Shown here one piece after another: positions 28,759 to 31,700 of a stretch of DNA of 54,513 nt; the stretch's first letter is position 1, and each line of letters opens with the position of its first letter. A program made the position numbers. The stretch is from Girardia tigrina. Lineage: Eukaryota. The stretch lies in NCBI GenBank assembly GCA_001938485.1, contig MQRK01253783.1:4482-58994 (forward strand). Reading direction: 5' to 3'.

Positions 28759-31700
28759 CATCGATAAACATAAAAAATTGCGCGGTTACTAGTTTTCAGC
28801 ATTTTATCTAAAATCTTTTAAAAGCTAAGATTACTATAATTTGTTAAGCTTGTTCATAAACAAATATATTTTGTAAAAAAAATCCTTGTTTTTAATTCCC
28901 TTTGAACATTTATTAATATAACCTCAATATCCCTACAATAGCAATATTTTTTTTAAAGATTGCAACAATAATAATACATTTTGCAAAAGTTTAAAGTGAG
29001 ATTGGAAGTCATTTTGAAAAGTTCGAAAAACCCCATAGTACCAGTTTTAGTGTTGTAAGAATTAATAAAGAAATATTTTTATAAAATAAAAATGTTTTTG
29101 GAAGATGCGGTCAAATGACCGTTTCCCAAAAGTCCAAAATTAATTATTACGAAATTTTTTATTTTAAAATAATACAATAAATTGAAAATTAGCTGTTATG
29201 AGGGATACTATTTTGAATAGTATATTTTGAAATATCTGTTAATTTAAATTTATTGTATTTTAAAATAATAAATTTCGTAATTGATATCGGTCTTTTGGGA
29301 TTCGGTCATTTAACACAAATCCGTTTTTTAGATACAATAAAAATTAATATCCAGGAATAATTAACTAAATTTTTCATTTTTTTATTAATAATAAATTTTA
29401 AATTAACAAAAAAAGCAAAACAAAACGTTTGTTTAAATAATCATAAAATAATTTTTAAATTCAAAAAAAATATGGAATTCGATAATTCAAGTATGTTTTG
29501 ATTGTTTTACATTTTTTAATAACTGGTGTGACGAAACTCTAGATTTTGAAGCGAATTTTGATTTTGTAAAACATTTGATTGATAAATGCAGCTTTTTTTC
29601 AATTGATACGGAATTGACGGGACTGCATGAAGGCAGCGTTAATTTCTATGACACACATGAAATGCGCTATAAATTCCTTAGAGACAATTCCATGCAGTAC
29701 ACAATCACCCAAATGGGTATTTGTTTCTTCACGTACTGCATGGAAAAGAAACGGTTTTTTATTGATTAATTACAAAAAAATAATTAATATTTTAATTATT
29801 TAATTAATTTAATAAATATTTAAATTATTTTAAATAAATTAATTAAAATAATAATTATTTAAATATAATAATTATTTAATTAAATTAATATTTTTTCTTG
29901 TTTAATTAAATTAATTATAATTTTAATTGTTTTATTAAAATAATTAATATTTTACTTATTTGAGTAAATTATTTAATAATATTTATTAGTTTCCAATGTC
30001 ATCCAATTAATTTCCAATTACGACCATTTTCCTATGAAAAGGGAAGAGACAGTATTTCTATCGACCCAAAAACAATCGAATTTCTAAACAAAAGTGGATT
30101 TAATTTTAGTCGATGTTTTAATGACGGTTTGTTTTATTAAACAATTTTTTGTGTACTTGGTTATCGGTCCTGTATTACTAATTTTCTTTTACCCAATGAT
30201 GTTTACGGCACCACAAAAATGAACAATAATAAAAATTTCAATATACAATAAACAATTTCCAGTATAGTTCCGTAGCCGCCCAAGTAAATATAAAAATATA
30301 ACAATAAATAAAATATTATAAGCACACCAGGAAGAATATTTATTTAAAATTTTTAAAAGTAACCGAATAGTAATCTAAAATAAATACATTGTTTACGCGA
30401 TCACGAACTTCTCTGACTTATTTTATGTATATTTTTTAATTAAATTTGTTTTTTACCATTTTTAAAAAACTTTTTCTTATTTTTGTATAGAAAAATTAAC
30501 TGAAAATAATTTAAAAAACAGAAAAAATTATTCAATTTTAAGTATAGCAAAATTTAAATACAGTCACCCACACTATTGTACCATTTCTATATTGTGCCCC
30601 CTCATACATCGCCATTTTTTAAAAATTGTACATATTTTAATAATTAAAAAAAACACTTACGAATTGACGAATTTTAAACTGAAATACTACACTGTCTAAT
30701 AAAAATTTTAAATTCTTTTGACATTAATTAATATTTTAAAAAATTTATTTGCGTAATGAATTTTTGATGGATTGTATCAATTTCTATCATTTCTAATTAA
30801 AAGCCAAGAAAGTGCAAAATTTTTATCTTCTATCCAACCATACCAATACCCGGACATTCATAAAACGCCAAGACTCCAAATGGAAAGAAGAAGAGAACTC
30901 TCTTAAACCGGTATGACCCATAACCAAATACAACAAACGATTTTTTTGTTTATTCTCCCTTAAAAACTAATTTTAGGAATACCTTTTTTGAGTCTTTCGA
31001 AATATGAAATGAAAAAGGCTTTAATTGAATCTGAAAAAGAGGGAAATCTCTCGAATATATCAAATGATATCGATCCTGCAAAATTTTCTCGTTTAACAGA
31101 TTTAATGTAAATTTTCTTTTTCTAGACGAATATTCGTCGGAGGGATACAGTTCTGTTTTATTCCTGAATTTATCTTTTTTTTACTTACACATTTTAAATG
31201 ATAATATGTATATTTATGTATTGATTTTATTTAGGTTTTGGTATACATATAATTAATTGCACATCTAATATTTAACAATTATTTTTAACATCAATATCAG
31301 TTCTTAAATCATTTGTTAAATGAGAACAAATTGCATCCAATTCAAGTGTCATTGCATGAAATAAAAAAATATTCCAATATGATGGAAATCAACTATTGTA
31401 AACTGTTATTATTAATATTTTCATAAAATCAGAATAAAAATCCGTTAAATTATAAATTTTTAACTGAAAGAGATATTGACGTAATGAGCAAAGTATTTTA
31501 ATTGATCAAAAATCATTGAAACTGTGATAATGAAATGAGCATTCTTTCGCAATGAAGGTCGATAACAGAACTGTAACCGCCGGATTTATTGTTCCATTAA
31601 TTTTTATATCGATTTGACGACAGAAATCGGTGCGAAAAATTTCTCGAAAACGACTCTGAGCAGGAATTTACAATCGATATTCCCTCGAAATCATTCGATA

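What the first reader, a model, noticed from the sequence alone, without database searches (positions are those of the whole stretch)
29990..31106. PARN paralogs are nearly identical except exons 3-4, which include the predicted dimer interface
Seen: exon 1-intron 1-exon 2 (282 nt) differ at one base, and introns 12 and 13 are identical. Exon 3 differs at 16 of ~46 aa (EMGKGDFNLNPQ..NNFDYNR vs EKGRDSISIDPK..SGFNFSR) and exon 4 at 12 of ~44 aa, with no indels or stops. The long introns hold different TEs, so the duplication is not recent. Known: in human PARN the FVCQSSSIDFL..GFDFNKVF segment forms the homodimer interface and borders the RNA pocket. Inference: gene conversion homogenises most exons while exons 3-4 stay distinct, possibly giving two deadenylases/trimmers with different dimerisation or substrate specificity.
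Basis: partly seen in the sequence, partly recalled or inferred. Interest (0 to 1): 0.72.

Follow-up and report, generated by a model that had tools for sequence, protein, structure and literature searches.

The report
Tandem PARN genes, patchily homogenised
Two neighbouring copies of a poly(A)-removing enzyme gene are kept alike in patches by copying between them, while two patches, one encoding the likely pairing surface of the enzyme, have stayed different; this is a familiar evolutionary pattern seen here in a new gene.

Summary
The window holds two intact, same-strand copies of a PARN-type deadenylase gene (A 2431-21567, B 29472-46772). Each has 17 exons, 1617 coding nt and only GT-AG introns. 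Exons 3-4 are not the only exception: exons 14-16 carry 16 more of the 56 differences. Divergence is a mosaic (0-1%, 3-8%, 14-29%), patchier than any shuffle, and long introns share only short flanks. This fits an old tandem duplication partly homogenised by short-tract gene conversion. In exons 3-4, synonymous divergence (dS 0.29 vs 0.06) and flanking-intron divergence (16-26%) are raised as much as replacements, and the N:S ratio matches the rest (P 0.36). The island is therefore old, unconverted sequence; selection is not shown. By position, exon 3 corresponds to the human PARN dimer-interface segment and changes cluster there, but that mapping is inferred, not computed. It is a known pattern in a new gene.

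The parts
2431..21567 (+). PARN-type gene, copy A, start codon to stop codon, 17 exons
   Evidence: Exons 2431-2449, 2502-2712, 3049-3185, 3235-3364, 5690-5797, 5844-5988, 6054-6110, 6155-6232, 8229-8272, 8321-8363, 8417-8489, 13038-13151, 13202-13274, 13320-13378, 13430-13522, 13571-13666, 21431-21567. All 16 introns are GT-AG, phases are consistent, there is no in-frame stop, and the coding length is 1617 nt. Hand model from the A/B alignments. Three N runs lie in its intron 16.
29472..46772 (+). PARN-type gene, copy B, start codon to stop codon, 17 exons
   Evidence: Exons 29472-29490, 29543-29753, 29990-30126, 30977-31106, 31624-31731, 31778-31922, 31988-32044, 32089-32166, 36116-36159, 36209-36251, 36307-36379, 41271-41384, 41435-41507, 41553-41611, 41663-41755, 41810-41905, 46636-46772. 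Exon lengths equal those of copy A and all introns are GT-AG. Pfam CAF1 on the exon 2, 3 and 8 pieces; weak RNA_bind on exon 15. Exon 2 matches human PARN 2a1r_A residues 8-76, E 2.1e-7.
2430..2713 (+). Near-identical tract 1, copy A (exon 1, intron 1, exon 2)
   Evidence: 1 difference in 284 aligned columns against B 29471-29754. The tract contains a 270-column identical run.
29471..29754 (+). Near-identical tract 1, copy B
   Evidence: Partner of A 2430-2713.
2714..3457 (+). Divergent island 1, copy A: intron 2, exon 3, intron 3, exon 4, first ~90 nt of intron 4
   Evidence: Intron 2: 37/233 aligned nt differ, plus 104 gap columns. Exon 3: 29/137. Intron 3 ends: 6/28 and 5/19. Exon 4: 20/130. 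Intron 4 5' flank: 15/91.
29755..31202 (+). Divergent island 1, copy B (holds the finding's interval 29990-31106)
   Evidence: Partner of A 2714-3457.
3049..3185 (+). Exon 3, copy A
   Evidence: CAF1 profile 79-124, 26.4 bits. Per-codon differences.
29990..30126 (+). Exon 3, copy B
   Evidence: CAF1 profile 79-123, 21.7 bits. 16/45 codons differ from A, clustered at codons 17-27 and 35-44.
3235..3364 (+). Exon 4, copy A
   Evidence: No Pfam or PARN hit on its own. 12/42 codons differ from B.
30977..31106 (+). Exon 4, copy B
   Evidence: As for copy A exon 4.
30147..30937 (.). Candidate insertion with terminal inverted repeats in copy B intron 3
   Evidence: 23-nt arms, 83% complementary, 745 nt apart. 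Intron 3 is 49 nt in A and 850 nt in B. No other copy of it in the window.
5626..6251 (+). Low-divergence tract 3, copy A (end of intron 4, exons 5-8 with introns 5-7, start of intron 8); partner B 31560-32185
   Evidence: 19/626 differ: non-coding 12/238, exon 7/388. Similarity falls away sharply upstream of it.
8191..8494 (+). Low-divergence tract 4, copy A (exons 9-11 with introns 9-10); partner B 36078-36384
   Evidence: 13/304 differ: non-coding 11/144, exon 2/160.
13029..13326 (+). Near-identical tract 5, copy A (exon 12, intron 12, exon 13, intron 13, first bases of exon 14); partner B 41262-41559
   Evidence: 4/296 differ; non-coding 0/102. Introns 12 and 13 are identical.
13327..13696 (+). 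Divergent island 2, copy A (rest of exon 14, intron 14, exon 15, intron 15, exon 16, start of intron 16)
   Evidence: 50/370 differ: non-coding 24/129, exon 26/241. Exons 15-16: dS 0.19, dN 0.094. Exon 15 has a weak RNA_bind PF08675 match.
41560..41936 (+). Divergent island 2, copy B
   Evidence: Partner of A 13327-13696.
21382..21573 (+). Low-divergence tract 7, copy A (end of intron 16, exon 17, 6 nt past the stop); partner B 46587-46778
   Evidence: 7/192 differ. Homology ends a few bases after the stop codon.

Best explanation
Two intact tandem genes for a PARN-type poly(A)-specific 3' exonuclease descend from an old duplication and are being homogenised piecemeal by short-tract interlocus gene conversion.

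Shown: both copies keep the same 17-exon structure and an open frame. Their divergence falls into at least three classes that include neutral sites. Homology is limited to exons, short introns and short flanks of the long introns.

Inferred: each group of exons separated by long, non-homologous introns behaves as its own conversion unit, and tracts cover such a unit only in part. Exon 1-2 and exon 12-14 were converted very recently, and exons 5-11 and 17 somewhat earlier. Two islands have not been converted for a long time: intron 2 to the start of intron 4, and exon 14 to exon 16. Once an island is 15-25% diverged and, as in island 1, bounded by a low-complexity intron, a ~790-nt insertion and a non-homologous long intron, conversion is hard to start there, so the state is self-keeping.

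Island 1 encodes the counterpart of the human PARN beta5/dimer-interface segment. Replacements cluster in that segment while its hydrophobic/polar alternation is kept, so the two proteins probably still dimerise but present different pairing surfaces. Whether that difference is used (homodimer preference, different substrates) is possible but not shown.
For: - Gene models.
- PARN identity: CAF1 E 6.8e-17 on the exon 2 piece, also exon 3 and exon 8 pieces. Human PARN 2a1r_A E 2.1e-7 against CNOT7 E 0.5.
- Mosaic: 1/284, 4/296, 19/626, 13/304 and 7/192 differences in the low tracts, against 29/137, 20/130 and 50/370 in the islands.
- Non-coding sites follow the same classes: 0/54 and 0/102; 12/238, 11/144 and 2/55; 9/46, 37/233, 15/91 and 24/129. 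The split 0/102 against 25/437 gives P 0.007.
- Tract 1 against the other low tracts: 1/284 vs 43/1418, P 0.006.
- Shuffles: longest identical run 270 against a maximum of 198 (0/5000); bin variance 0/2000.
- Long introns share only flanks of about 30-300 nt.
- Exons 3-4: dS 0.287 against 0.057 for all other exons, dN 0.200 against 0.027. Synonymous 12/50.3 against 8/221, P 2e-5. N:S 37:12 against 28:14, P 0.36.
- Inside exon 3, the conserved codons 1-16 still have pS 0.33 with pN 0.03, which means old divergence under constraint.
- Neither copy looks decayed. Exon 3 scores 26.4 (A) and 21.7 (B) bits to CAF1; exon 15 scores 15.6 (A) and 20.0 (B) bits to RNA_bind.
Against:
- A purely mechanical escape is not proven. 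In exon 3 codons 17-27, replacement divergence equals or exceeds synonymous divergence (pN 0.41, pS 0.32; a window chosen after seeing the data). Overall dN/dS in exons 3-4 is 0.70, which is high for a conserved enzyme core.
- Island 2 has short, alignable introns and no insertion barrier, so barriers are not needed for an island to persist.
- The identical tracts could in principle come from cross-polishing of paralogues during assembly, which cannot be checked here.
- The gene model is by hand and has no transcript support.
Confidence: 0.6

Rival explanations
1. Selection keeps the interface different. Conversion does reach exons 3-4, but converted alleles are removed because the two enzymes need distinct pairing surfaces or pocket-lining residues, for instance so that each forms its own homodimer instead of mixed dimers. 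[quoted passage not shown]
For: - The differences cluster where the interface residues named for human PARN would fall: exon 3 codons 17-27 (9 of 11 differ) and 35-44 (residue list from PMC3516499 passages).
- pN 0.41 against pS 0.32 in codons 17-27.
- Hydrophobic positions stay hydrophobic and polar ones stay polar, as read.
- Both copies are intact.
- The theory and the opsin precedent are in passages of PMC3924837. Heteromers of paralogues after duplication of homomers: PMC6711710, listing and abstract start only.
Against: - The N:S ratio is not different from the rest of the gene (P 0.36).
- Neutral sites around the exons are as diverged as the exons.
- At my register, 4 of 6 named positions differ against 12 of 39 others, P 0.17.
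- The register itself is inferred.
- A second island with no known interface role exists.
Confidence: 0.2
2. One copy received exons 3-4 (and perhaps exons 15-16) by conversion from a third, more distant PARN paralogue elsewhere in the genome. The islands would then be imports rather than old residue.
For: The tract boundaries are sharp, for example at the exon 2/intron 2 junction and inside exon 14. The two islands differ in depth: exons 3-4 49/267 against exons 15-16 21/189, P 0.036.
Against: No third copy lies in the window. Intron flanks inside island 1 are still alignable between A and B at about 75-85%, as expected for old shared sequence. This cannot be tested further because the rest of the genome is not at hand.
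Confidence: 0.08
3. Assembly artefact. Either the two copies are two haplotypes placed in tandem, or the identical tracts come from collapse or from polishing with reads that map to both copies.
For: Scaffold gaps (two runs of 50 N and one of 5 N) lie in copy A intron 16, with inverted repeats around one of them. The identical tracts are short: a 270-nt run and about 190 nt with one difference.
Against: - The long introns are almost wholly non-homologous and of different length: 2325 vs 517, 1996 vs 3949, 4548 vs 4891, 7764 vs 4730 nt.
- Upstream homology stops about 50 nt before the start codon, and downstream homology stops a few bases after the stop.
- 30-36% amino-acid difference in exons 3-4 is far beyond allelic variation.
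Confidence: 0.07
4. A recent duplication (about 5% divergence) followed by fast adaptive change confined to exons 3-4.
For: Most exons differ by only 0-3.6%.
Against: Synonymous and intron divergence in and around exons 3-4 are raised five-fold or more. The long introns share almost nothing. A second island includes diverged short introns (7/51 and 14/48).
Confidence: 0.03

Closest known systems
Red and green opsin genes (tandem, about 24 kb apart) with a peak of divergence at exon 5 under ongoing gene conversion; also RHD/RHCE (passages of PMC3924837)
   Same: These are tandem paralogues tens of kb apart in which most of the gene, introns included, is kept similar by conversion while a short coding stretch stays strongly different.
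   Different: In the opsin case the introns flanking the peak are described as little diverged and the causal residues are known. Here the flanking intron sequence is as diverged as the exons, there are two islands, and no functional difference is known.
Mosaic divergence of tandem paralogues by interlocus gene conversion (HMA4 model, bioRxiv 10.1101/2025.10.29.685298; Caenorhabditis paralogues, PMC3966223; both seen as search listing and abstract start only)
   Same: Patchwork of tracts of different divergence between neighbouring copies.
   Different: These concern other genes. I did not read them beyond the listing, so no detailed comparison is made.
Human PARN homodimer (PDB 2A1R/2A1S; Wu et al. 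2005, not held; described in passages of PMC3516499, PMC10493513 and PMC2504292)
   Same: Exon 2 aligns to human PARN residues 8-76, with the Asp-x-Glu of the active site kept. A weak match places exon 12 at residues 373-405, with His and Asp at the expected spots. By position, exon 3 covers the beta5/interface stretch (residues 93-127 are named in the paper).
   Different: The proteins here are about 538 residues and end in a short basic run rather than a long C-terminal domain. R3H was not detected exon by exon, and RNA_bind scores only below the cut-off. At my inferred register, the position of the Gln109 said to be invariant is Asn in A and Asp in B, and that of Phe123 is Tyr in A and Phe in B.
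Heteromers of paralogues / paralogue interference after duplication of a homomer (PMC6711710, PMC9548406, PMC11066126; listing and abstract starts only)
   Same: A duplicated homodimeric enzyme whose copies differ most at the presumed self-contact surface is the situation these papers treat.
   Different: No interaction data or dimer model exists here, so the link is conceptual.
PNLDC1, the PARN-like piRNA trimmer (passages of PMC5062988)
   Same: CAF1-type nuclease domain related to PARN.
   Different: PNLDC1 is described with a putative C-terminal transmembrane segment. No exon peptide of either copy has a hydrophobic 19-residue window above 1.01 on the Kyte-Doolittle scale, and both copies end in a basic run.

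Membership tests
PARN (poly(A)-specific ribonuclease) | CAF1-type DEDD nuclease domain (Pfam PF04857) | tested here: met
   Exon 2 piece E 6.8e-17 (profile 5-79), exon 3 piece E 2.6e-6 (79-128), exon 8 piece E 1.9e-7 (206-231), exon 12 piece E 0.043 (301-320)..
PARN (poly(A)-specific ribonuclease) | Closest solved relative is PARN rather than CAF1/CNOT7 | tested here: met
   Exon 2 peptide: human PARN 2a1r_A E 2.1e-7, mouse PARN 3d45_A E 1.1e-6, CNOT7 chains E 0.5-0.65.
PARN (poly(A)-specific ribonuclease) | First active-site motif (Asp28, Glu30 of human PARN) | tested here: met
   Asp and Glu are aligned with the human pair in the printed alignment. They are identical in both copies.
PARN (poly(A)-specific ribonuclease) | Remaining catalytic residues (Asp292, His377, Asp382) | tested here: inconclusive
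   The exon 12 piece matches human PARN 373-405 only at E 0.36. By the coordinates, His and Asp fall at 377 and 382. Exon 8 alone gives no solved-structure hit, only Pfam positions 206-231. Both exons are the same at these residues in A and B.
PARN (poly(A)-specific ribonuclease) | R3H domain inserted in the nuclease domain | tested here: inconclusive
   No Pfam hit for the exon 4, 5 or 6 peptides taken singly. The joined model was not searched, so a domain split over exons would be missed.
PARN (poly(A)-specific ribonuclease) | C-terminal RNA-binding (RRM-type) domain, Pfam PF08675 | tested here: inconclusive
   Exon 15: B 20.0 bits (E 7.3e-4), A 15.6 bits (E 0.016). The cut-off is 27.9 bits and only profile positions 7-27 of 79 are matched.
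PARN (poly(A)-specific ribonuclease) | Homodimer through the beta5 strand of the nuclease domain | not testable with these tools
   This needs a whole-protein model or an experiment, and the joined step was left out. Exon 3 alone or as a profile does not reach PARN in the solved-structure search.
PNLDC1 (PARN-like trimmer) | Putative C-terminal transmembrane segment (PMC5062988 passages) | tested here: not met
   The highest 19-residue Kyte-Doolittle mean in any exon peptide is 1.01 (exon 8, copy B); for exon 17 it is -0.07 and -0.12. The usual threshold of about 1.6 is recalled. Windows that span exon junctions were not scanned.
Interlocus gene conversion between tandem paralogues | Tracts of much lower divergence than neighbouring tracts, at neutral sites as well as coding ones | tested here: met
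   Non-coding 0/54 and 0/102 against 9/46, 37/233, 15/91 and 24/129. Synonymous 8/221 against 12/50.3. Shuffles 0/5000 and 0/2000.
Interlocus gene conversion between tandem paralogues | Duplication older than the similar tracts suggest | tested here: met
   Long introns share only short flanks. Exon 3 dS is 0.44. Intron 15 differs at 14/48.
Interlocus gene conversion between tandem paralogues | Segment-wise phylogenetic conflict with orthologues of other species | not testable with these tools
Selected peak of divergence under conversion (opsin type) | Excess of replacement over silent divergence in the peak, or low divergence of the sequence flanking it | tested here: not met
   N:S 37:12 against 28:14, P 0.36. 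The flanking introns are as diverged as the exons. Only the window of codons 17-27, chosen after seeing the data, has pN above pS.

The most novel reading that the evidence does not exclude
The exon 3 island is held apart by selection in the face of ongoing conversion. The two PARN enzymes would need different self-pairing surfaces, and with them different residues lining the partner's active site, so that each works as its own homodimer with its own substrates, for example bulk deadenylation versus trimming of small or non-coding RNAs. The diverged RNA-binding-domain island would be the second half of the same split. That would be a natural example of insulation of a duplicated homodimer, written directly into a conversion mosaic.
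Probability: 0.2. Interest if true: 0.6.

Novelty: new member of a known kind. Interest (0 to 1): 0.35.

Why it matters
If the reading is right, this locus is a clean small example of how gene conversion and divergence share out a duplicated gene. It warns annotators that the near-identity of most exons hides an old duplication, so dating it from average divergence would be wrong. The islands also give ready paralogue-specific markers for expression work. The more interesting possibility is that a dimeric RNA exonuclease has split into two enzymes by changing its pairing strand and its RNA-binding domain. That would make a question in the evolution of protein complexes directly testable with sequence, structure and expression data, but nothing here yet shows it.

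Tried and rejected
I replaced it with stop-free ORF pieces and exact exon peptides.
- Residue-level mapping of exons 3 and 4 to human PARN failed. Phmmer with each copy's exon 3 and two-sequence profiles of exon 3 and exon 4 returned only chance-level hits to unrelated proteins (E 0.04-2) and no PARN. Exon 8 alone returned nothing.
- Fetching the human PARN chain by its search id is not possible, so no pairwise alignment could be made.
- The primary structure paper (Wu et al. 2005, PMC1356309) is not held. Interface residues are taken from passages of papers that cite it.
- The first literature search on 'PARN' at word start was swamped by unrelated words.
- One search for PARN paralogues or gene duplication (7 papers hold all four terms, 6 listed) showed nothing on tandem PARN genes or conversion, judging by title or abstract start. 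This is one search, not proof of absence.
- Positive selection as the sole cause was rejected on synonymous and intron divergence.
- Haplotype duplication was rejected on the non-homologous long introns.
- No tRNA and no Rfam family lies in the window.
- Not used: structure prediction, fold search and the protein atlas, because they need the joined protein or do not suit a known family. The one open collection scan was also not used, because it holds bacterial and archaeal genomes only.
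Full report
**Scope and rules**

I do not take this window for human. It is 22-38% G+C, its short introns are 44-65 nt, and its PARN exon 2 aligns to human PARN only as a distant relative. The three N runs (15144-15193, 19471-19520, 19854-19858) lie in intron 16 of copy A and were left as they are.

The joined protein was not built, searched or folded. So whole-protein domain calls, a computed alignment to human PARN across exon 3, and any dimer prediction are missing from this report. 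The sequence logo and tables of PMC3516499 and the interface table of PMC5062988, which may list more interface residues, were not seen.

**What is there**

Self-comparison of the window shows two collinear sets of matches on the + strand. From five A/B alignments I drew a 17-exon model for each copy: A 2431-21567, B 29472-46772. In both copies every intron is GT-AG, exon lengths are equal, phases agree, there is no in-frame stop, and the coding length is 1617 nt.

Evidence that the gene is PARN-type:
- Pfam CAF1 (PF04857) matches the exon 2 piece (E 6.8e-17), the exon 3 piece (E 2.6e-6), the exon 8 piece (E 1.9e-7) and, weakly, the exon 12 piece (E 0.043).
- The PARN RNA-binding domain PF08675 matches exon 15 below its cut-off: 20.0 bits in B and 15.6 in A, against a cut-off of 27.9.
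- The exon 2 peptide finds human PARN (2a1r_A residues 8-76, E 2.1e-7) and mouse PARN well ahead of CNOT7 (E 0.5), with the active-site Asp and Glu aligned.
- A weak hit (E 0.36) puts the exon 12 piece at human residues 373-405. By the coordinates this sets a His and an Asp at 377 and 382.
- No exon peptide has a transmembrane-like window, and both proteins end in a basic run. The genes are therefore PARN-type rather than PNLDC1-type (domain description from passages of PMC5062988).

**Check of the observation**

The interval 29990-31106 is copy B exon 3 to exon 4.
- 1 difference in the 282 nt of exon 1-intron 1-exon 2.
- Introns 12 and 13 identical.
- Exon 3: 29/137 nt and 16/45 full codons differ. 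Exon 4: 20/130 nt and 12/42 full codons differ. There are no indels or stops.
- The long introns carry different mobile-element pieces and share only flanks of about 30-300 nt.

The headline is too narrow. Of 56 amino-acid differences in 538 codons (54 of 526 full codons; 2 of 12 split codons), 28 are in exons 3-4, 16 are in exons 14-16 and 12 are elsewhere.

**The mosaic**

Counting aligned columns:

| Segment | All sites | Non-coding | Exon |
|---|---|---|---|
| Upstream flank | 9/46 | 9/46 | - |
| Tract 1 (exon 1-2) | 1/284 | 0/54 | 1/230 |
| Intron 2 | 37/233 (+104 gap columns) | 37/233 | - |
| Exon 3 | 29/137 | - | 29/137 |
| Exon 4 | 20/130 | - | 20/130 |
| Start of intron 4 | 15/91 | 15/91 | - |
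| Exons 5-8 block | 19/626 | 12/238 | 7/388 |
| Exons 9-11 block | 13/304 | 11/144 | 2/160 |
| Exon 12 to start of exon 14 | 4/296 | 0/102 | 4/194 |
| Rest of exon 14 to just past exon 16 | 50/370 | 24/129 | 26/241 |
| Exon 17 block | 7/192 | 2/55 | 5/137 |

Three classes of divergence are thus seen at neutral sites too. Supporting tests:
- The longest identical run (270 columns) exceeds all 5000 shuffles that keep exon and non-coding classes apart (maximum 198). The bin variance exceeds all 2000 shuffles.
- Tract 1 is less diverged than the other low tracts (1/284 vs 43/1418, P 0.006).
- The non-coding 0/102 of tract 5 differs from the 25/437 of the other low tracts (P 0.007).
- Homology begins about 50 nt before the start codon and ends a few bases after the stop.

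These alignments of AT-rich, low-complexity introns (intron 2 above all, which matches itself on both strands) are uncertain in detail. Their counts are rough.

**Exons 3-4 in detail**

By Nei-Gojobori counting on full codons, exon by exon:

| Exons | dS | dN | Ratio |
|---|---|---|---|
| 3-4 | 0.287 (12.0/50.3) | 0.200 (37.0/210.7) | 0.70 |
| All others | 0.057 | 0.027 | 0.48 |
| 15-16 | 0.189 | 0.094 | 0.50 |

Synonymous divergence is raised in exons 3-4 (12/50.3 vs 8/221, P 2e-5). The N:S ratio is not (37:12 vs 28:14, P 0.36).

Within exon 3:

| Codons | pS | pN |
|---|---|---|
| 1-16 | 0.33 | 0.03 |
| 17-27 | 0.32 | 0.41 (9 of 11 residues differ) |
| 28-34 | 0 (identical at every base) | 0 |
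| 35-45 | 0.63 | 0.31 |

The whole exon is therefore old. Part of it is under tight constraint, and part changes at about the silent rate. These windows were chosen after seeing the data and the counts are small.

Intron 3 is 49 nt in A and 850 nt in B. B holds a candidate 791-nt insertion bounded by 23-nt inverted repeats.

**Relation to the human dimer interface**

From papers (passages only):
- Human PARN is active as a homodimer formed through the nuclease domain (PMC2504292).
- Substitution of Ile113, Phe123 or Phe127 inactivated or markedly reduced its activity (PMC10493513).
- The beta5 strands of the two protomers pair antiparallel, with Phe93, Phe106, Cys108, Ile113, Phe123 and Phe127 packing together.
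- Arg99 reaches into the partner's active site, and Gln109 on beta5 is described as invariant (PMC3516499).

Computed here: exon 2 positions 1-64 match human residues 8-76. Exon 3 continues the CAF1 profile directly after exon 2, at profile positions 79-124.

Inferred: without further gaps, exon 3 then spans about human residues 83-129, which covers all the named residues, and exon 4 lies beyond them.

A register I chose by matching the spacing of the named residues puts them at these exon 3 codons:

| Human residue | Exon 3 codon | Copy A | Copy B |
|---|---|---|---|
| Ile113 | 29 | Ile | Ile |
| Phe123 | 39 | Tyr | Phe |
| Phe127 | 43 | Phe | Phe |
| Phe106 | 22 | Phe | Ile |
| Cys108 | 24 | Leu | Ile |
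| Gln109 | 25 | Asn | Asp |

At that register 4 of 6 named positions differ against 12 of 39 others (P 0.17). The hydrophobic/polar alternation of the strand is kept in both copies. The counterpart of Arg99 could not be placed.

No tool produced this alignment. Exon 3 and exon 4, singly or as profiles, returned only chance-level hits and no PARN.

**Mechanism**

The best reading is an old tandem duplication with repeated short-tract interlocus gene conversion. Exon groups separated by long non-homologous introns act as separate units, and tracts cover them only in part. Two stretches have gone unconverted long enough to reach 14-29% divergence, after which conversion is hard to start. Island 1 is further fenced by the low-complexity intron 2, the insertion in B intron 3 and the unrelated long intron 4.

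Exon 3-4 dS is indeed high, which argues for 'conversion simply absent'. But dN/dS is not low, and the changes do fall where the interface should be. Selection for distinct pairing surfaces therefore stays a live minority reading (about 0.2). The other rivals are import from a third paralogue, assembly artefact, and recent duplication with fast adaptive change. They are given with their evidence in the Rival explanations section; the last is contradicted by the silent-site data.

**Comparison with what is known**

Mosaic divergence under conversion, with peaks that may mark selected sites, is well described. The examples are red/green opsin exon 5 and RHD/RHCE (passages of PMC3924837), and HMA4 and Caenorhabditis paralogues (listings only). 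The fate of duplicated homomers and their mixed dimers is an active topic (PMC6711710, PMC9548406, PMC11066126; listings and abstract starts). One search found nothing on tandem PARN paralogues or conversion. That C. elegans, plants and trypanosomes have several PARN genes is recalled, not checked.

**Verdict**

The feature is real. This is a new member of a known kind, of modest interest (0.35). It would be higher (about 0.6) if the interface island proved to be selected.

Noticed in passing
window 22565-26246, - strand (between the two PARN copies): This is the virus-like stretch: an LTR-retrotransposon-like element, described only. Direct repeats of about 490-500 nt at its two ends (22565-23052 and 25747-26246) are 91.3% identical over 503 columns. 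The inner ~2.7 kb holds a zinc-knuckle ORF (E 8.6e-5), one 319-aa ORF with reverse transcriptase (profile 59-204 of 205) and RNase H, and a weak, below-cut-off trace of a Tf2-type integrase SH3 domain. All 6 minus-strand ORFs of 60 aa or more were scanned and 2 of the 4 plus-strand ones; no protease or integrase core was seen. The pol gene is broken: it lies in pieces with at least one stop and at least one change of frame, and large parts are missing. I did not count further.
   Followed up: partly
window 336-980, - strand: A second retroelement pol fragment lies upstream of copy A: a 214-aa ORF with the end of reverse transcriptase and the start of RNase H. It is 44% identical (94/214) to the ORF at 23890-24849, so it is a different lineage of the same kind. 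1421-1835 matches 23443-23031 in reverse orientation at 70.6%.
   Followed up: partly
window 26916-28006, + strand: A pogo/Tc5-like DNA transposase lies between the copies: HTH_Tnp_Tc5 (E 1.8e-7) and DDE_1 (E 4.2e-23), on two overlapping ORFs in different frames.
   Followed up: no
window 13870-16363 (A intron 16) and 45134-45750 (B intron 16): The same element with terminal inverted repeats lies at different places in intron 16 of the two copies. It is about 610 nt and contiguous in B. In A it is interrupted by about 1.3 kb that holds a DDE_3 transposase fragment (14528-15143) abutting an N run, and by another ~0.6 kb.
   Followed up: partly
window 18114-20738 (A intron 16): Nested inverted repeats lie around the N run at 19471-19520: 19082-19470 against 20185-19791 (95.2%) and 18114-18254 against 20738-20598 (95.0%). 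This is either a foldback element or an assembly product at the gap.
   Followed up: no
window 42063-43068 (B intron 16): Inverted repeat with 360-nt arms, 94.7% identical, about 290 nt apart.
   Followed up: no
window 4145-4318 and 7213-7433 (A introns 4 and 8): Two copies of one repeat in opposite orientation (93-96%) flank exons 5-8 of copy A. 6530-6898 in A intron 8 matches 46000-46367 in B intron 16 at 95.9%, so the same repeat family sits in different introns of the two genes.
   Followed up: no
window 32397-33609 (B intron 8) and 37152-37673 (B intron 11): 170-nt direct repeats (92.4%) bracket a minus-strand ORF with a weak zf-RVT match (E 0.0029). A Tc5-type HTH fragment (E 4.4e-6) lies in intron 11.
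   Followed up: no
window 49890-50579, + strand: A Tc1/mariner-like transposase fragment (HTH_33 and DDE_3, both below cut-off) lies downstream of copy B.
   Followed up: no
window 2380-2430 and 29423-29471; 21568-21573 and 46773-46778: Homology between the two genes starts only about 50 nt before the start codon and ends about 6 nt after the stop. The two copies therefore have unrelated upstream and 3' sequences and may be regulated differently.
   Followed up: partly
window 2713-3048 and 29754-29989 (intron 2 of both copies): Intron 2 is an AT-rich, low-complexity stretch made of short units that match each other on both strands. It differs in length (336 vs 236 nt) and forms the sharp 3' edge of the near-identical tract.
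   Followed up: no
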